A stretch of DNA of 38,029 nucleotides from a virus. Shown piece by piece: positions 2,500 through 10,672 of the stretch. Numbering within the stretch: position 1 is the stretch's first letter; every line of letters starts with the position of its first letter. The notes under the pieces were generated by a model. That model was not told the DNA's origin. It did no database searches and saw only the letters and a list, made by a program, of their open reading frames with translations. The stretch lies in the UHGV virus genome UHGV-0335973. One strand, 5' to 3'. Position numbers and translations under genes: made by a program.

Positions 2500-3471
2500 A
2501 TGTCAATCTCCACAACGATCGTACCTCTTAATCTTCAACAAGATTTAGGGGAACAGAAGTTCTTAGGTCGTGGGTGCTTCGGTATCCACAACTACATGCA
2601 AGGTCAAGTCGTAGCTGATATTAATGGTGAAACTATCTCGGAAGAAGGGCGTTATCGTCGTTTCAACCGTGATATCAACTTGCAACTGGAGATGTTGAAT
2701 TACTGGACTCACTCTTTTCACGGTCATATTGCATCTGAAATTGAAAAGAACTTGGTTGAAACAGCAGACATTATGAACTCCATGTCTTGCTATCGTCACG
2801 TATTTACGATCACTTCGGCGAATAGTGTTGCTGTCAACCTTCGTGAGCATCCAGCAGATCAGATCTTCACAGGACTTATGCTCTTCCGTAGTATTCTGGA
2901 AGGGCAATATCGTGGAATGGATTTCCTAGCAGAAGGAATTGAAGACAGGGAAGAGTGGCTGAAGCGTAAACGCATCGGCATCGCTCTAGTGTTAGCTGGG
3001 TTGGGTCGTGACTTCTTCGGTGGATGGTCTCAACGAGGAAGAGCCAATGGGAGTAGCGAGAGCACCTCTATTGTTATTAACAACAATATGTCAGCAGCAG
3101 CATTCCTTCCTTTGGTTGTAGACTCTGATGAATATACGAAGCAAGTATGGGTTCAAAACCCTTTCGGTGTTGGTGACAACAAGGATGGTTATGTTCGCAA
3201 CCATAACCAAGATGCCTTACGAAGATTTGCTCGTGCTAAAGATCAAGACCCAGACGAGTATGAAACAATGTCAGAGTGGTTAAGACTCTGGTCCAACTGT
3301 CATGGTCACAAACGTGAATCAATAGACGACAAGTTGGGAAACATTACAGTACAAAACTTTACATCCCGACTGATTCAAAGAACTGGAGCAGATTCCGGTC
3401 TTACTCTTGAAGAAGTTGGTAACACAATCTCATCTCTCTTTTCTGAACTAGTGGAGTATTACAATGACTAA
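2500..3471 (+). CDS. hypothetical protein (323 aa)
   Basis: long ORF, overlaps next gene by 8 nt. Confidence 0.6.
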   Translation: MSISTTIVPLNLQQDLGEQKFLGRGCFGIHNYMQGQVVADINGETISEEGRYRRFNRDINLQLEMLNYWTHSFHGHIASEIEKNLVETADIMNSMSCYRHVFTITSANSVAVNLREHPADQIFTGLMLFRSILEGQYRGMDFLAEGIEDREEWLKRKRIGIALVLAGLGRDFFGGWSQRGRANGSSESTSIVINNNMSAAAFLPLVVDSDEYTKQVWVQNPFGVGDNKDGYVRNHNQDALRRFARAKDQDPDEYETMSEWLRLWSNCHGHKRESIDDKLGNITVQNFTSRLIQRTGADSGLTLEEVGNTISSLFSELVEYYND

Positions 3472-4270
3472 GCGCAATTTCTTAATAGGCAGCGACCCTG
3501 AGATGTTCGTCCGTACCAGCAACGGTATTATCACCTCTGTGGCTGGTCTGTTAGGCTGTTCTAAGGATGATAAGATCACTCTGGCTAAGGATGTTCGTCT
3601 TCAAGAGGACAACGTACTGGCTGAGTTTGATATTGACCCACAGAGCGGTTTTGAAGCGTTTAACGATAACATGCAACGTGGTATTGATCTCACCAATAAT
3701 GTCCTGAACAAACTGGACATGGAAATAGCTCCGGGTGTTAGCTCTCACATCTTCACTGAAGAAGAGATGAAAACTTTCAACGAATCAGCGTTCATCTTCG
3801 GGTGCACTCCTGATTTCAACGCCTTCACTGGTCAGAAGAATCCATCCCCGACTTCTCAGAATAAGGGACTTCGTACTGCCGGTGGTCACGTACATCTTGG
3901 TGTGGTTGGTGCTTTGGATATCACTCTGCAAACCCAGATGATGTTGGGTGTGCTGTGTGATTACTTCCTATCCCTCCCAGCAGTAATTATGGACAAAGAT
4001 ACTCGCCGTAAAGAACTCTACGGTAAAGCATCTGCAATCCGTTATAAAGACTATGGTATTGAATACCGTTCTCTGTCTAACTTCTGGATTAGTGGTCGTG
4101 AAAACCGTAAGTTTGTTTACGATCAGGTTGACAAGGTTGTTCAGCAGTGCGATATGTCCACTCTGATGGCATTGCACTCTCGTCTTCCGATTGAGAAGCT
4201 TCATGAAATCATTAACGGGAACAACGTTAAAGAAGCGGACCAGCAGATCAAACTCCTTCAGGTAGCATAA
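3464..4270 (+). CDS. amidoligase-like protein (divergent Amidoligase_2 / glutamine-synthetase-like COOH-NH2 ligase)
   Basis: N-terminal LIGSDPEMF acidic strand, GGHVHLGV and IEYRS motifs that parallel GVGIELELEG, STHVHMD and GSIEFR in the neighbouring amidoligase. Confidence 0.45.
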   Translation: MTKRNFLIGSDPEMFVRTSNGIITSVAGLLGCSKDDKITLAKDVRLQEDNVLAEFDIDPQSGFEAFNDNMQRGIDLTNNVLNKLDMEIAPGVSSHIFTEEEMKTFNESAFIFGCTPDFNAFTGQKNPSPTSQNKGLRTAGGHVHLGVVGALDITLQTQMMLGVLCDYFLSLPAVIMDKDTRRKELYGKASAIRYKDYGIEYRSLSNFWISGRENRKFVYDQVDKVVQQCDMSTLMALHSRLPIEKLHEIINGNNVKEADQQIKLLQVA

Positions 4271-4279
4271 GAGGTTATC

Positions 4280-4897
4280 GTGAGCTTAGTAGCTGATTTT
4301 TCTCATTACTATAATGGTACATGGATTGCTAAACGAGCAGGTAATATCAACCTTCCATGTTTTGTGATTGGTGTTGAGCAGAGCGGTAACTTCCGCAGTG
4401 ATGACTTCTCTCACGAAGCAGAACAGGCTCTGTACTTTGTTGTAGAGCAGTGGTACAAGAACGAGCATGGGAATCTCCGAAACACTACGATGAATATTCC
4501 AGTGTTCGACCCAACTTTGATTCTTGAATCACCTGATGTTGGTTATCTGTTCCATAACGGTAACACTGTAAGCTGGACTCATATCAACCCTGTTCGTCAG
4601 AGAGCGAAGGGTTTGATGGGTAACAAGATCCGAAACGCTCCGGGGGTTGGTCGTTCTATCTCTGGTGAAATGGTTTACAGTCTATTCAATCCTGAATTCG
4701 AAGGATTGGTTACTCGTTATATTTATATCAACCCTACGGATGGTAAGGTGCACTATAAAGGTGCACTGGTAGGACAAGTAGATCTGGAAGCGCCTCGTGA
4801 CTCTTACGGTCAGCAACCAATGCGACTTCTGGAACACTTTCATCACATTTCTGAAAACCTTAGCAATTATAATATTACGTTGGTGGATTCGTTATGA
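4280..4897 (+). CDS. hypothetical protein (205 aa, GTG start)
   Basis: ORF with AAGAGG SD; overlaps next gene (ATGA). Confidence 0.5.
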   Translation: MSLVADFSHYYNGTWIAKRAGNINLPCFVIGVEQSGNFRSDDFSHEAEQALYFVVEQWYKNEHGNLRNTTMNIPVFDPTLILESPDVGYLFHNGNTVSWTHINPVRQRAKGLMGNKIRNAPGVGRSISGEMVYSLFNPEFEGLVTRYIYINPTDGKVHYKGALVGQVDLEAPRDSYGQQPMRLLEHFHHISENLSNYNITLVDSL

Positions 4898-5997
4898 CAA
4901 CTGTAGCGCAAACTTTTGGATATCGAGAAGGTCGTTTAACTGAGGCGCATAGTTCAATTGCACTTCAGTGCGGTGTCGGTATTGAACTTGAACTCGAAGG
5001 TTCCGACCATATCGAAGCAGATATGTGGGATTGTACAGAGGATGGTTCCCTGCGTAATGGTTGTGAAATGGTATGTTCACGGCCTTACAACGGACAGGAG
5101 TTGTTAGACGCTATCAACAACCTGAGTGAAGCAGTAGCTGAATCGCACGCCGAGGGGACTTGGCGTTGCTCTACTCACGTTCATATGGATATGAGGGATG
5201 CTGATAGTAATATCCTCAAGAAAACCATTCTCGCTTGGACCTTCTATGAAAAGATGTTGTTCAAGTGTTCAGGCTACCACCGTTACCGTAGCAACTTCTG
5301 CCCTGCTTTTGCAGTGGTACAAGCACAGGTAATGAATGCCTCTGACGCATTTAACTACGACGATGAAGAGTTCTTCAACCGTCTGGTTCGTTCATGGGAT
5401 AAGTACACATCCCTGAACCTTCTGCCACTTGCCCAATACGGTTCGATTGAGTTCCGTATCAGTGAGCCTAAGTGGAAACGTGGTCAACTTCTCAATCTGG
5501 TTAACCGCTTCTTAATGTTGAAGAAGCTGGCTTTAGATAACGCAGAGATGAGCAATGATCAGTTTATTGAGCATTTAAATACTGTAAGATTTGCCCCAAT
5601 GCTTCCTTACCTTCCTCTGGATTACAATCTGGATGAATCGGATTTGCATTCAGGCTATTGTATGGCCCGTGATGTTTTGTATTGTCGTTCTCATGAAGTA
5701 GAACAGTCTGGTCGTATTCGTTTACGTCGAACCAACTCCAACGGAGAAGTTCTTGTTGACCTACGCCATATCTCAGACTTCTACGGATTCCTTGGATATG
5801 TTCGAGGGAACGCTAACAACTTGTACCAAGAGATTCTGGTTATGCTCCGTACAACTGATCTATCTACTGTACGATCTGCACCAGAGCAACGTATCCGTGC
5901 TATTTTTGACTTACTACGTGAGTCTGGTCACAGTGATAGCAATATCACAGGGTACATTCCAGACCATCTGGAAAATCAGTTAGAGCAAGCGCTGTAA
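4894..5997 (+). CDS. amidoligase (Amidoligase_2 family)
   Basis: GVGIELELEG...EDGSL..GCEMV, CSTHVHMDM, YTSLNL...GSIEFR motifs typical of the family. Confidence 0.65.
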   Translation: MTTVAQTFGYREGRLTEAHSSIALQCGVGIELELEGSDHIEADMWDCTEDGSLRNGCEMVCSRPYNGQELLDAINNLSEAVAESHAEGTWRCSTHVHMDMRDADSNILKKTILAWTFYEKMLFKCSGYHRYRSNFCPAFAVVQAQVMNASDAFNYDDEEFFNRLVRSWDKYTSLNLLPLAQYGSIEFRISEPKWKRGQLLNLVNRFLMLKKLALDNAEMSNDQFIEHLNTVRFAPMLPYLPLDYNLDESDLHSGYCMARDVLYCRSHEVEQSGRIRLRRTNSNGEVLVDLRHISDFYGFLGYVRGNANNLYQEILVMLRTTDLSTVRSAPEQRIRAIFDLLRESGHSDSNITGYIPDHLENQLEQAL

Positions 5998-6076
5998 TCA
6001 ATGGGTGCCTCTGACAAAGGGGCACAATTTAAAGGTTAATTAGATGAAAGGGTTTACCCTTCAGGTGGATTAGAAA

Positions 6077-10001: not shown

Positions 10002-10183
10002 ATAAGTATAAAGTTCTGTTTAAAGATACTAACGACGCTGGTGATATGCGAGCTATGGACCTAGATGCTGACATGTTTAACTTCTCTGATGGCAAAGTGG
10101 CCTTCTTTCAGGGAAGTGAAGCTGTTGCAGTATTTGAAAGTGCAGCAATCTGCGGTGTAATCAAAATCTTTATTACAGAGTAA
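9998..10183 (+). CDS. hypothetical protein (61 aa)
   Basis: ORF overlapping upstream stop. Confidence 0.4.
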   Translation: MNKYKVLFKDTNDAGDMRAMDLDADMFNFSDGKVAFFQGSEAVAVFESAAICGVIKIFITE

Positions 10184-10190
10184 TCTGCTT

Positions 10191-10214
10191 TAGCCTCTTC
10201 GAAAGAGGAGGCTA
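10191..10214 (+). other. stable hairpin with GAAA tetraloop, no T-tract
   Basis: TAGCCTCTTC-GAAA-GAGGAGGCTA, 10 bp stem; similar in sequence to hairpin at 543-564. Confidence 0.3.
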
Positions 10215-10252
10215 GTTCGGATAAACTAAACAAACCAACAAAGGTATAGATA

Positions 10253-10672
10253 ATGTCAGAAGTAATTTACGTAGCAACTTATGGTTCTCTTCGTCGTGGT
10301 CAAGCTAACTATTTAGTTAATGACCGAGCTGGTGCTAAGTCAATTGGTGAAGGTTGGACTGAAGACAACTTTGATCTGTTCCGTTACGGTGGTTCCTACT
10401 TCCCGAGCATCTCTCTCGCACACAGCAATAACAATAAGCCTGTTCGTGTAGAAGTGTTTGCTACTGACAAAGCAGGTCTGGAAGGTCCGTATGACCGTCT
10501 GGAAGGTTACAACAAACGTAGCCCTGAAGACAGCTTCTATCAGCGTACTCAGATTGCTGTTAAGATGGACTCAGGTGAAACTGTTATCGCTTGGATTTAT
10601 CATATCGACGAAGAACAAGATGTTCTGGTTGAATCTGGCGACTGGTCAGAGTATCTGAAAAGTGAATCTTGA
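10253..10672 (+). CDS. gamma-glutamyl cyclotransferase (GGCT/AIG2-like)
   Basis: N-terminal YVATYGSLRRG motif (YGSL) and size typical of AIG2/GGCT fold. Confidence 0.65.
   Translation: MSEVIYVATYGSLRRGQANYLVNDRAGAKSIGEGWTEDNFDLFRYGGSYFPSISLAHSNNNKPVRVEVFATDKAGLEGPYDRLEGYNKRSPEDSFYQRTQIAVKMDSGETVIAWIYHIDEEQDVLVESGDWSEYLKSES

What the first reader, a model, noticed from the sequence alone, without database searches (positions are those of the whole stretch)
3464..10672. Compact amidoligase / GAT-II / ATP-grasp / GGCT module of unknown target
Five enzymes of amide-bond chemistry sit in one tightly overlapping operon: two Amidoligase_2 paralogs (3464-4270, 4894-5997), a class II glutamine amidotransferase-like Ntn hydrolase (6077-8107), an ATP-grasp ligase (8553-9746) and a GGCT/AIG2 cyclotransferase (10253-10672). 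Three uncharacterised proteins precede or interleave them (1296-2489, 2500-3471, 4280-4897). Amidoligase_2 is known to co-occur with GAT-like thiol peptidases and AIG2 proteins, but as far as I know the products are uncharacterised. Plausible roles are gamma-glutamyl or peptide tagging of a protein, small-molecule synthesis, or amino-acid/polyamine decoration of DNA bases; the last is speculation suggested by the nearby ThyX, dCTP deaminase and Dam genes.
Basis: partly seen in the sequence, partly recalled or inferred. Interest (0 to 1): 0.8.

Follow-up and report, generated by a model that had tools for sequence, protein, structure and literature searches.

The report
Known phage amidoligase cassette, product unknown
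This is the textbook copy of a gene cassette, first noted in phage phiEco32, that packs three amide-bond-forming enzymes and two glutamate-cleaving enzymes next to the phage replication genes. It is shared by hundreds of phages, but nobody has shown what it makes, and the idea that it decorates the phage DNA is unlikely.

Summary
The window is a Kuravirus, 96% identical to phiEco32. All five enzyme calls are supported at the stated coordinates.

Three corrections:
- 3464-4270 is PF14395 (phiEco32-like COOH-NH2 ligase type 2), not Amidoligase_2.
- The amidotransferase starts at a conserved ATT codon (6077), which exposes the catalytic Cys.
- The ATP-grasp Pfam hits are below threshold, but other libraries back the call.

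The module is not new. It is the archetype of a cassette predicted in 2009 (Iyer et al.). It is syntenic in at least 307 phage records, from Kuravirus and LUZ24-like phages to crAss-like phages, and usually sits next to the primase/helicase gene. Motif scans of 100,044 bacterial and archaeal genomes found it only on phage-like contigs.

New here:
- gp87-like, gp85-like (two invariant Lys-Gly motifs) and DUF7195 proteins are integral cassette members; gp88 is lineage-specific.
- crAss-like versions that lack the cyclotransferase carry a Peptidase_C26 gamma-glutamyl hydrolase instead.

Best reading: a cytoplasmic gamma-glutamyl "attach, extend, cleave" pathway acting on an unidentified amine.

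DNA decoration is disfavoured. No base-activating enzymes are present. Cassette-bearing phage Rembedalsseter shows no modification by nanopore, and phage tf DNA cuts normally. The unexplained restriction resistance of Gordonclarkvirinae keeps the idea barely alive.

The parts
2500..3471 (+). gp87-like protein of unknown fold; conserved cassette member placed just before the PF14395 ligase
3464..4270 (+). phiEco32-type COOH-NH2 ligase type 2 (gp86); ATP-dependent carboxylate-amine ligase
   Evidence: PF14395, E 3.9e-8; phrog_3815. tblastn finds it in 307 phage records. Invariant across six lineages: D11-P12-E13, E54, R137, H142-x-H144, E200-x-R202.
4280..4897 (+). gp85-like non-enzymatic protein (GTG start): two small SH3-like barrels around a conserved flexible loop, with two invariant Lys-Gly motifs
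4894..5997 (+). Amidoligase_2 (gp84); second ATP-dependent carboxylate-amine ligase
   Evidence: PF12224, E 4e-8; phrog_7469. Invariant from Kuravirus to crAss-like phages: E33-x-E35, D50-G51-S52, E58, C92, H95-x-H97, E186-F187-R188.
6005..6076 (+). Leader of the amidotransferase gene: hairpin 6005-6025, 10-codon mini-ORF 6044-6073, Shine-Dalgarno AGGTGGA 6063-6069
   Evidence: Sequence and fold (z only -1.27). The stretch from 6034 into the coding sequence is invariant in phiEco32, KBNP1711 and EK010. The hairpin keeps pairing through a double change in EK010.
6077..8107 (+). Class II (Ntn) glutamine amidotransferase-type enzyme (gp83) with an ATT start. N-terminal glutaminase domain (about residues 1-250), low-complexity linker, then a lineage-variable C-terminal region with three Cys-rich zinc-ribbon-like motifs
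   Evidence: GATase_6, E 1.1e-14. Alignment to the GlmS glutaminase domain 1xff keeps Arg73, Asn98-Gly99 and Asp123. Invariant in seven lineages: C2, R29, R86, N111-G112, D129. No Pfam domain in the C-terminal 400 aa. Start codon evidence.
8112..8345 (+). DUF7195 small protein (gp82); conserved cassette member that follows the amidotransferase
   Evidence: PF23825, E 4.7e-17. Found in the same position in 7-11, tf, Rembedalsseter, L007 and L013.
8553..9746 (+). RimK/MptN/Ddl-like ATP-grasp ligase (gp80) with an acidic linker and a Kuravirus-specific C-terminal domain
   Evidence: phrog_2599, E 7e-185. NCBIfam MptN 3e-7 and RimK family 2e-6. The PDB Ddl/RimK alignment keeps the D...E-x-N metal-binding motif (AVDLI...LEVNTAPG).
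10253..10672 (+). Gamma-glutamyl(amine) cyclotransferase, AIG2/GGACT family (gp77)
   Evidence: PF06094, E 3.4e-17, covering 2-119 of 120 profile positions. The YGSLRRG motif and an LEG acidic residue can be read in the translation. Orthologues occur in tf, Rembedalsseter, phi14:2 and L020.
1296..2489 (+). gp88; precedes the cassette but is restricted to Gordonclarkvirinae and evolves fast. Membership is unproven
   Evidence: tblastn finds it in only 98 records, all Escherichia, Shigella or unnamed phages; 41-46% identity in sister genera, where gp86 keeps about 80%. No profile similarity to gp87.
8326..8550 (+). gp81 small ORF; no counterpart detected in the five non-Kuravirus cassettes compared, so probably a lineage-specific filler
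   Evidence: No Pfam hit. No homologue in the other cassettes.
9753..10183 (+). gp79 and gp78 small ORFs inserted between the ATP-grasp and cyclotransferase genes; absent from tf-type cassettes, where those two genes abut
   Evidence: From my own knowledge (not tested here), phiEco32 gp79 is a host RNA polymerase inhibitor.

Best explanation
The region is the archetypal phiEco32-type amidoligase cassette. It is a phage-specific set of soluble, cytoplasmic proteins, probably transcribed together with the replication genes that abut it. I read it as a gamma-glutamyl 'attach, extend, cleave' pathway.

Proposed steps:
1. One or both glutamine-synthetase-like ligases (PF14395, PF12224) use ATP to activate a carboxylate, most simply the gamma-carboxyl of glutamate. 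They join it to an amine acceptor.
2. The RimK/MptN-like ATP-grasp ligase adds a further residue to a glutamate-type carboxylate.
3. The Ntn amidotransferase has a pocket that still recognises the free alpha-amino and alpha-carboxyl groups of glutamine or a gamma-glutamyl group. It either hydrolyses a gamma-glutamyl amide or supplies ammonia.
4. The GGACT cyclotransferase removes the gamma-glutamyl group as 5-oxoproline and frees the amine. In crAss-like phages a Peptidase_C26 gamma-glutamyl hydrolase takes this role.

Shown: the enzyme families, intact active-site residues, conservation and synteny, the swap between cyclotransferase and hydrolase, and the absence of membrane or secretion signals.

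Inferred: the order of steps, glutamate as the activated acid, and the role of the three conserved non-enzymatic proteins (gp87-like, gp85-like, DUF7195) as subunits, adaptors or carrier.

The acceptor is not identified. My ranking is:
- a small cytoplasmic amine (polyamine, a glutathione-like peptide, or the glutamate tail of a folate or pterin), about 0.3;
- a lysine-type side chain on a protein such as the gp85-like protein, about 0.2;
- the diaminopimelate of a murein precursor, about 0.15;
- DNA, about 0.06.
For: - Family assignments.
- Catalytic residues kept from Kuravirus to crAss-like phages: amidotransferase C2/R29/R86/N111-G112/D129; ligase motifs; ATP-grasp D...E-x-N.
- All four recognisable enzyme types outside the two ligases point to glutamate chemistry. 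The best ATP-grasp hits are the alpha-L-glutamate ligases MptN and RimK. The others are GGACT and the glutamine-binding pocket.
- Non-orthologous displacement: cr108_1 and contig L014 lack GGACT and carry Peptidase_C26 inside the cassette. phi14:2, a member of the same subfamily (Asinivirinae), carries GGACT.
- Gene order is the same in Kuravirus, 7-11, tf, Rembedalsseter, a 189-kb phage and a 43-kb alphaproteobacterial-bin contig. It is permuted but complete in crAss-like phages.
- No transmembrane or signal segment in any product.
- Established analogues of the logic, from my own knowledge: PuuA/PuuD, BtrJ/BtrG (the tf record annotates the cyclotransferase as BtrG-like), EgtA/EgtC, PafA/Dop.
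Against: - No tailoring enzyme (oxidase, decarboxylase, transferase) is recognisable between attachment and cleavage, so the purpose of a protect-and-release cycle is unclear.
- 7-11 has no annotated cyclotransferase or C26 near the cassette, so the cleavage step may fall to the amidotransferase or may not be universal.
- The regiochemistry (gamma versus alpha) and the activated acid cannot be read from sequence.
- Three conserved proteins have no assignable role.
- The amidotransferase could be a true ammonia donor, which would make the pathway purely anabolic.
- The persistent adjacency to primase/helicase and nucleotide-metabolism genes is not explained by this reading.
Confidence: 0.5

Rival explanations
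1. Murein-precursor modification. This is the literature hypothesis: the ligases add to or rebuild the unusual bonds of the peptidoglycan stem peptide (gamma-D-Glu, meso-DAP, D-Ala-D-Ala) on cytoplasmic precursors, and the amidotransferase and cyclotransferase trim them. The altered wall would block superinfecting phages.
For: - Later papers attribute this proposal to Iyer et al. 2009 and Hardies et al. 2013.
- The ATP-grasp enzyme's best PDB hit is a D-Ala-D-Ala ligase.
- Every host named among the 307 records is Gram-negative, hence with DAP-type murein.
- DAP is a lysine analogue. GGACT-type enzymes act on epsilon-(gamma-glutamyl)lysine (my own knowledge).
Against: - No Mur-ligase domain, no envelope targeting and no lipid-II-related protein.
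- The cassette sits among replication and nucleotide genes, not lysis genes.
- Little new wall is made during a short lytic cycle (inference).
- No experiment supports it in any searched paper.
Confidence: 0.15
2. Carrier- or protein-bound tagging. The gp85-like protein is the acceptor or carrier. One of its two invariant lysines receives a gamma-glutamyl (oligo)peptide through an isopeptide bond. The ATP-grasp ligase extends it, and the cyclotransferase or amidotransferase erases it. This would be a writer/eraser or carrier-protein assembly line.
For: - A non-enzymatic fold with invariant K110-G111 in a disordered, otherwise highly conserved loop, and K160 at a hairpin tip.
- The gene always lies between the two GS-like ligase genes.
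- The family is essentially confined to this context: 64 representatives among 1.84 billion proteins.
- Precedents from my own knowledge: PafA (a GS-like ligase) joins Pup to lysine; RimK and LysX (ATP-grasp) act on protein termini or the carrier LysW; GGACT cleaves epsilon-(gamma-glutamyl)lysine.
Against: - No gp85-like protein is detectable in the crAss-type cassettes.
- No conserved C-terminal Glu or Gln, as in Pup or LysW, in gp82 or gp85.
- The invariant lysines could equally bind ATP or an acidic ligand.
- The model is of moderate confidence.
Confidence: 0.2
3. DNA base decoration. The cassette attaches an amino acid, peptide or polyamine to a base in phage DNA. This would explain why Gordonclarkvirinae resist restriction.
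For: - The BASEL study finds Gordonclarkvirinae remarkably resistant to restriction-modification systems without any known modification pathway.
- The window keeps 8 EcoRI, 24 EcoRV and 7 EcoKI sites, so site loss does not explain that resistance.
- Amidoligase and amidotransferase Pfam hits occur next to thymidine-hypermodification genes in metagenomic contigs.
- The cassette abuts replication genes in most lineages.
Against: - The window has no hydroxymethylase, TET/JBP, 5-hmdU kinase, aGPT-Pplase or transglycosylase. ThyX is an ordinary Thy1 match.
- Rembedalsseter has the whole cassette, yet no modification motif was found by native-versus-amplified nanopore sequencing.
- tf DNA is cut by RsaI, HpaI, EcoRV, SmaI and HaeIII and was cloned.
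- Strong palindrome avoidance (z -7.9; CCWGG 1 versus 45 expected) suggests the DNA is exposed to restriction over evolutionary time.
- A phage Dam at 31660-32172 and unknown inhibitors are simpler explanations.
Confidence: 0.06
4. Purely anabolic amidation. The amidotransferase is a true ammonia donor docked on one of the ligases. Together they turn carboxylates into carboxamides or build an amidated peptide. The cyclotransferase only recycles by-products.
For: - All glutaminase residues are intact.
- A long C-terminal extension with zinc-ribbon-like motifs could dock on a partner.
- Precedents from my own knowledge: MurT/GatD, asparagine synthetase, LtsA.
Against: - No recognisable synthase or acceptor domain is fused to the glutaminase domain.
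- The C-terminal region is not conserved between lineages.
That suggests the two have equivalent, cleaving roles.
- Standalone class II domains such as EgtC are hydrolases (my own knowledge).
Confidence: 0.15

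Closest known systems
phiEco32-type phage amidoligase cassette (Iyer, Abhiman, Burroughs & Aravind 2009, Mol Biosyst 5:1636; called a 'peptidoglycan modification cassette' after Hardies et al. 2013)
   Same: It is this cassette. The region is 95.7% identical in DNA to phiEco32 genes 77-88, with the same Pfam families (PF14395 is named after it) and the same order as in 7-11, tf, LUZ24-like and crAss-like phages.
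   Different: Nothing essential differs. The primase/helicase gene just downstream carries a 783-bp HNH/intron-like insert absent from phiEco32.
Gamma-glutamyl 'handle' pathways: PuuA/PuuD (putrescine), BtrJ/BtrG (butirosin side chain), EgtA/EgtC (ergothioneine)
   Same: Each pairs an ATP-dependent ligase (GS-like or ATP-grasp) with an enzyme that later removes a gamma-glutamyl group: Peptidase_C26, a GGCT-like cyclotransferase or a class II amidotransferase-like hydrolase. All three remover types occur in versions of the phage cassette.
   Different: The phage cassette has three ligases. It has no recognisable tailoring enzyme or acyl carrier protein, and it adds three conserved proteins of unknown fold or function. 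None of the phage enzymes is an orthologue of the named enzymes, since NCBIfam scores are far below the cut-offs.
Pupylation (PafA/Dop) and amino-group carrier systems (LysW/LysX)
   Same: A GS-like ligase that forms isopeptide bonds to lysine. A RimK-family ATP-grasp ligase that works on a small carrier protein. A small conserved non-enzymatic protein encoded among the enzyme genes.
   Different: No Pup-like or LysW-like protein with a conserved C-terminal Glu or Gln. No proteasome or lysine-biosynthesis genes. The gp85-like protein has SH3-like barrels, not a zinc ribbon or a disordered tag.
Phage thymidine hypermodification clusters (Lee et al. 2018; 2021, PMC8989533)
   Same: Located among replication and nucleotide-metabolism genes. 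Amidoligase and amidotransferase Pfam hits have been seen beside such clusters.
   Different: The defining enzymes (dUMP hydroxymethylase or TET/JBP, 5-hmdU DNA kinase, aGPT-Pplase) are absent from the window. BASEL reports no known modification pathway in these phages.

Membership tests
phiEco32-type phage amidoligase cassette | PF14395 COOH-NH2 ligase type 2 | tested here: met
   E 3.9e-8, above the gathering score (33.3 versus 25 bits); 98.9% identical to phiEco32 gp86.
phiEco32-type phage amidoligase cassette | PF12224 Amidoligase_2 | tested here: met
   33.9 versus 22 bits; motifs invariant.
phiEco32-type phage amidoligase cassette | Class II amidotransferase, RimK-like ATP-grasp and AIG2/GGACT genes in the same co-oriented block | tested here: met
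   order identical to phiEco32 genes 83, 80 and 77.
phiEco32-type phage amidoligase cassette | Location in the early/replication gene module of a tailed phage | tested here: met
   Followed by primase/helicase, exonuclease and dCTP deaminase.
Class II (Ntn) glutamine amidotransferases | N-terminal catalytic Cys exposed after removal of the initiator Met | tested here: met
   ATT(start)-TGT; Cys is residue 2; other phages start Met-Cys-Gly.
Class II (Ntn) glutamine amidotransferases | Glutamine-binding Arg73 and Asp123 and oxyanion Asn98-Gly99 (GlmS numbering) | tested here: met
   Aligned to 1xff residues 69-132; invariant in seven lineages.
Class II (Ntn) glutamine amidotransferases | Fused or partnered synthase (acceptor) domain that receives ammonia | tested here: not met
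   No Pfam domain in residues 250-676. The C-terminal region is not conserved between lineages. A separate partner cannot be excluded.
ATP-grasp carboxylate-amine ligases (RimK/Ddl type) | C-terminal Mg-ATP motif D...E-x-N | tested here: met
   AVDLI...LEVNTAPG aligned to Ddl 4eg0 and RimK-like 7qys.
ATP-grasp carboxylate-amine ligases (RimK/Ddl type) | ATP-binding lysines of the central domain; score above the family threshold | tested here: inconclusive
   Pfam and NCBIfam scores are below the cut-offs (17 versus 24 bits; 30 versus 350 bits). The N-terminal half aligns only to MptN, residues 69-251.
Phage DNA thymidine hypermodification clusters | Source of 5-hydroxymethylpyrimidine (ThyA-like hydroxymethylase or TET/JBP) | tested here: not met
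   Only ThyX (PF02511) and dCTP deaminase were found among the window ORFs scanned. Only this 38-kb window was scanned.
Phage DNA thymidine hypermodification clusters | 5-hmdU DNA kinase and aGPT-Pplase | tested here: not met
   No such Pfam hits. BASEL states no known modification pathway.
Phage DNA thymidine hypermodification clusters | Non-canonical base in virion DNA | not testable with these tools
   Indirect evidence only. Cassette-bearing Rembedalsseter shows none by nanopore, and tf DNA is cleavable.
Gamma-glutamyl handle pathways (Puu, Btr, Egt type) | Ligase plus gamma-glutamyl-removing enzyme encoded together | tested here: met
   Ligases plus GGACT; Peptidase_C26 takes the place of GGACT in cr108_1 and L014.
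Gamma-glutamyl handle pathways (Puu, Btr, Egt type) | Tailoring enzyme acting on the gamma-glutamylated intermediate | tested here: not met
   No oxidoreductase, decarboxylase or transferase domain in any cassette version examined. The proteins of unknown fold might hide one.
Pup/LysW-type carrier tagging | Small carrier with a conserved C-terminal Glu or Gln | tested here: not met
   The C-termini of DUF7195 and gp85-like proteins are not conserved.

The most novel reading that the evidence does not exclude
The cassette is a phage-borne, carrier-protein-based amide assembly line. The gp85-like protein carries the growing gamma-glutamyl (oligo)peptide on one of its two invariant lysines. Three ligases write it, and the amidotransferase and cyclotransferase (or C26 hydrolase) erase or release it. 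That would be a new kind of carrier or tag system, found only in phages of Gram-negative bacteria, including crAss-like gut phages in a variant form.
Probability: 0.15. Interest if true: 0.7.

Novelty: already known. Interest (0 to 1): 0.4.

Why it matters
The cassette takes up about 8 kb, a tenth of a 77-kb genome. Its active sites stay intact in more than 300 sequenced phages, including therapeutic E. coli and Pseudomonas phages and crAss-like gut phages. Seventeen years after it was predicted, no product is known.

Solving it would:
- add a new piece of phage-encoded metabolism or protein modification;
- show whether it bears on the unexplained restriction resistance of Gordonclarkvirinae;
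- give functions to three protein families that currently have none (gp87-like, gp85-like, DUF7195).

As a finding from this window it is a re-discovery, not a discovery.

Tried and rejected
1. gp87 as a third, divergent COOH-NH2 ligase: rejected. hhalign probability 0.07%.
2. gp88 and gp87 as paralogues, suggested by the paralogous pair in cr108_1 and weak hits in 7-11: not supported for Kuravirus. hhalign probability 0.6%. Foldseek does hit two gp87-like proteins in Aeromonas phage LAh_8.
3. gp86 and gp84 as close paralogues: rejected. Probability 1.2%; only the H-x-H motif aligns.
5. Bacterial chromosomal counterparts that might name the substrate. Motif scans of 100,044 genomes found none for PF14395. 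For the phage-type Amidoligase_2 they found only phage-like or contaminant contigs. Sensitivity was limited to two conserved peptide patterns per scan.
6. A defence or anti-defence role: no PADLOC match.
7. Envelope targeting: no transmembrane or signal segments.
8. Restriction-site avoidance as the cause of restriction resistance: rejected for EcoRI, EcoRV and EcoKI.
9. Literature. Ten full-text searches found no experimental study of the cassette. Iyer 2009 and Savalia 2008 are not held, so their content is taken from citing papers and my own memory.
10. The leader hairpins are not energetically exceptional (z -1.27). Only their conservation is notable.

Full report
**Identity of the window.** The 7.2-kb region matches 99 phage records. 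Sixty-six of them cover at least 80% of it, at about 96% identity, and all are Escherichia or Shigella phages of the phiEco32 group. Against the phiEco32 reference the ORFs map one-to-one to genes phi32_88 to phi32_77. These are annotated 'COOH.NH2 ligase', 'amidoligase enzyme', 'L-glutamine-D-fructose-6-phosphate aminotransferase', 'ribosomal protein S6 glutaminyl transferase' and 'gamma-glutamyl cyclotransferase'. Primase/helicase, exonuclease, nucleotidyltransferase and dCTP deaminase follow. The window is therefore a Kuravirus (Gordonclarkvirinae), and the finding is the type example of the cassette.

**Observation check.** All ORFs are present on the + strand.

| ORF | Call | Evidence |
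|---|---|---|
| 3464-4270 | PF14395 'Phage phiEco32-like COOH.NH2 ligase-type 2' | E 3.9e-8 |
| 4894-5997 | PF12224 Amidoligase_2 | E 4e-8 |
| 6077-8107 | GATase_6 | E 1.1e-14 |
| 8553-9746 | ATP-grasp | Pfam hits below threshold |
| 10253-10672 | GGACT | E 3.4e-17 |

- PHROG hits are near full length, with E-values from 1e-45 to 1e-200.
- NCBIfam places the amidotransferase nearest GlmS, PurF and EgtC-type Ntn domains. It places the ATP-grasp enzyme nearest MptN and RimK alpha-L-glutamate ligases. All scores are far below the equivalog cut-offs.
- The two ligases are not close paralogues. A profile-profile comparison aligns only the H-x-H motif (probability 1.2%).
- The genes overlap or are separated by a few bases. 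The only convincing + strand terminator-like site is upstream at 723-740.

**Start of the amidotransferase gene.**
- The mechanical ORF starts at 6416, because the frame that opens after the stop at 6071-6073 has no ATG, GTG or TTG until then.
- AGGTGGA lies 8 nt upstream.
- Four other phages begin this gene ATG-TGT-GG (Met-Cys-Gly).
- The leader from 6034 onward, ATT included, is invariant in phiEco32, KBNP1711 (Nieuwekanaalvirus) and EK010 (Suseptimavirus). gp88 in those genera is only 41-46% identical in protein.
- A 10-codon mini-ORF (6044-6073) ends 3 nt before the ATT and contains the Shine-Dalgarno sequence. Translational coupling is plausible but untested, and the predicted fold is not exceptional (z -1.27).
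- The GenBank records of KBNP1711 and EK010 start the gene downstream and so lose the catalytic Cys.

**Active sites.**
- Amidotransferase. The alignment to the E. coli GlmS glutaminase domain (1xff) keeps Arg73, Asn98-Gly99 and Asp123. C2, R29, R86, N111-G112 and D129 are invariant in seven lineages down to 17% identity. The pocket therefore still recognises a free glutamine or gamma-glutamyl moiety. No synthase domain follows. The C-terminal 400 residues have no Pfam match and differ between lineages. In enterobacterial phages this region carries three Cys-rich zinc-ribbon-like motifs.
- ATP-grasp enzyme. It keeps the D...E-x-N metal motif.
- PF14395 ligase. D-P-E, E54, R137, H142-x-H144 and E200-x-R202 are invariant.
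- Amidoligase_2. E-x-E, D-G-S, H-x-H and E-F-R are invariant.

**Distribution.**
- The PF14395 ligase is found by tblastn in 307 phage records. By the first word of the organism name these include Pseudomonas 121, Escherichia 94, Vibrio 22 and Aeromonas 11, followed by Proteus, Salmonella, Cronobacter and others. Every host named in the listing is Gram-negative. A profile search finds 1,890 protein clusters.
- Proteobacterial podovirus order: gp87-like (one or two copies), PF14395, gp85-like, Amidoligase_2, amidotransferase, DUF7195, ATP-grasp, GGACT, then often MazG or NUDIX and primase/helicase. This order holds, with small differences in which flanking and terminal genes are present, in 7-11, tf, Rembedalsseter, UFV-P2, a 189-kb metagenomic phage and a 43-kb contig binned as an alphaproteobacterium.
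- crAss-like phages carry a permuted but complete enzyme set next to their primase.
- Motif-based scans of 100,044 species-representative bacterial and archaeal genomes found no PF14395 relative. For the phage-type Amidoligase_2 they found only phage-like or contaminant contigs. Within the sensitivity of those scans, the cassette is phage-specific.

**The uncharacterised proteins.**
- gp88 occurs only in Gordonclarkvirinae and evolves fast. It shows no profile similarity to gp87.
- gp87 has no sequence or fold relative among solved structures. Its AlphaFold model (pLDDT 70.7, pTM 0.76) matches only uncharacterised proteins of other phages that carry the ligase or cassette: GAP52, LAh_8 (two proteins), CW02 and CVT22.
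- gp85 models as two small SH3-like barrels around a 43-residue low-confidence loop that is the best-conserved part of the protein. An exhaustive search of 1.84 billion representatives finds only 64 relatives. In 40 of them, at 22% mean identity, the invariant residues are D6, Y10, P26, K110-G111 and K160.
- gp82 is DUF7195 and follows the amidotransferase gene in every proteobacterial version.
- None of the cassette proteins has a transmembrane or signal segment. None matches a defence-system model.

**Mechanism.**
- Everything recognisable points to glutamate chemistry: two GS-like carboxylate-amine ligases, an ATP-grasp ligase of the alpha-L-glutamate ligase clade, an Ntn enzyme with a glutamine/gamma-glutamyl pocket, and a gamma-glutamyl(amine) cyclotransferase.
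- The most informative comparative result comes from the crAss-like cr108_1 and contig L014. They lack the cyclotransferase and carry a Peptidase_C26 (gamma-glutamyl hydrolase/PuuD family) inside the cassette. phi14:2, from the same subfamily, carries GGACT.
- Two unrelated enzymes that both cleave gamma-glutamyl amide bonds replace each other. Cleavage of such a bond is therefore part of the pathway.
- Known systems use the same logic (my own knowledge): PuuA/PuuD, BtrJ/BtrG, EgtA/EgtC and PafA/Dop.
- I therefore read the cassette as attach (gamma-glutamylation of an amine), extend (further amide bonds), then cleave (release as 5-oxoproline or glutamate).
- The step order, the activated acid and the acceptor are inferences.
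- Weak points: no tailoring enzyme is visible, 7-11 has no annotated cyclotransferase or C26, and the amidotransferase might be a true ammonia donor.

**The DNA-decoration idea.**

For:
- The window keeps 8 EcoRI, 24 EcoRV and 7 EcoKI sites.
- Amidoligase and amidotransferase domains have been seen beside thymidine-hypermodification genes in viromes (PMC8989533).
- The cassette hugs the replication genes.

Against:
- The window has no hydroxymethylase, TET/JBP, DNA kinase or aGPT-Pplase. It has only ThyX, dCTP deaminase and a phage Dam.
- Rembedalsseter has the complete cassette, but native-versus-amplified nanopore sequencing found no modification motif, only nicks (10.1101/2024.10.22.619576).
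- tf DNA was cut with five restriction enzymes and cloned (PMC3517423).
- The window shows strong palindrome avoidance (z -7.9), near absence of CCWGG (1 versus 45 expected) and depletion of GATC. Such avoidance would not be expected if the DNA were generally shielded from restriction enzymes (my inference).

I put this reading at about 0.06.

**Known or new.** The cassette was described bioinformatically in 2009 and again in 2013. Genome papers routinely annotate it, usually with the untested statement that it modifies the cell wall to prevent superinfection. Ten full-text searches found no experimental work. The finding is therefore already known as an unsolved module.

This analysis adds:
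- three conserved non-enzymatic members;
- the cyclotransferase/C26 displacement;
- the apparent restriction of the cassette to phages;
- the conserved ATT start and leader;
- evidence against the DNA reading.

**Verdict.** Novelty: already known. Interest 0.4. This is a real, long-standing open question, but the window offers no new handle on it beyond the hypotheses above.

Noticed in passing
window 10892-13466 (insert 11826-12608): The primase/helicase gene is interrupted relative to phiEco32. The single phiEco32 gene aligns to 10892-11825 and 12609-13466. The 783-bp insert holds an HNH endonuclease ORF (11919-12419) and a sub-threshold group I intron core match (RF00028, 27.7 bits, E 9e-5, 12337-12557).
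   Followed up: partly
window 6005-6079: The amidotransferase gene uses an ATT start. Upstream are a strong Shine-Dalgarno sequence, a 10-codon mini-ORF ending 3 nt before the start, and a hairpin with a compensatory change in EK010. The leader is invariant across three genera. Two GenBank records (KBNP1711, EK010) mis-start the gene and cut off the catalytic Cys.
   Followed up: partly
whole window: The restriction-site statistics are uneven. CCWGG occurs once versus 45 expected, GATC 93 versus 165, 17 palindromic hexamers are absent, and overall palindrome z is -7.9. EcoRV sites (GATATC), by contrast, are enriched: 24 versus 9.7, z +4.8. This may bear on the reported restriction resistance of these phages and on the specificity of the phage Dam.
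   Followed up: no
window 31660-32172: A phage-type Dam methyltransferase (PF05869, E 7e-49).
   Followed up: no
window 22208-24758 and 26435-26926: The DNA polymerase A gene looks split. A C-terminal DNA_pol_A fragment (24237-24758) follows an Endonuclease VII-like ORF (23674-24180) and a 450-aa ORF with no Pfam hit (22208-23560). A second HNH ORF lies at 26435-26926.
   Followed up: no
window 13962-15332: The 'nucleotidyltransferase' that BASEL suggested might relate to DNA modification gives only a weak PolyA_pol head-domain hit (E 0.0037). Its role is open.
   Followed up: no
window 9753-10001: A homologue of phiEco32 gp79 sits between the ATP-grasp and cyclotransferase genes. From my own knowledge gp79 is a host RNA polymerase inhibitor; this was not tested here. 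tf-type cassettes have no gene at this position.
   Followed up: no
L015-L019 (genome contigs): Kuravirus-like contigs are binned in an 'uncultured Peptococcaceae' MAG (CALKAR010000070, 99% identity). Related but more divergent phage-type fragments (43-58% identity to gp84) sit on four 1-kb scaffolds of the Herbiconiux daphne assembly. This is probably phage contamination of those assemblies.
   Followed up: no
L005 8826-8918 (Cellulophaga phage phi14:2): The annotated amidotransferase of phi14:2 has a 31-residue hydrophobic N-terminal extension before the catalytic Cys. This is either a propeptide removed by autoprocessing or a mis-called start.
   Followed up: no
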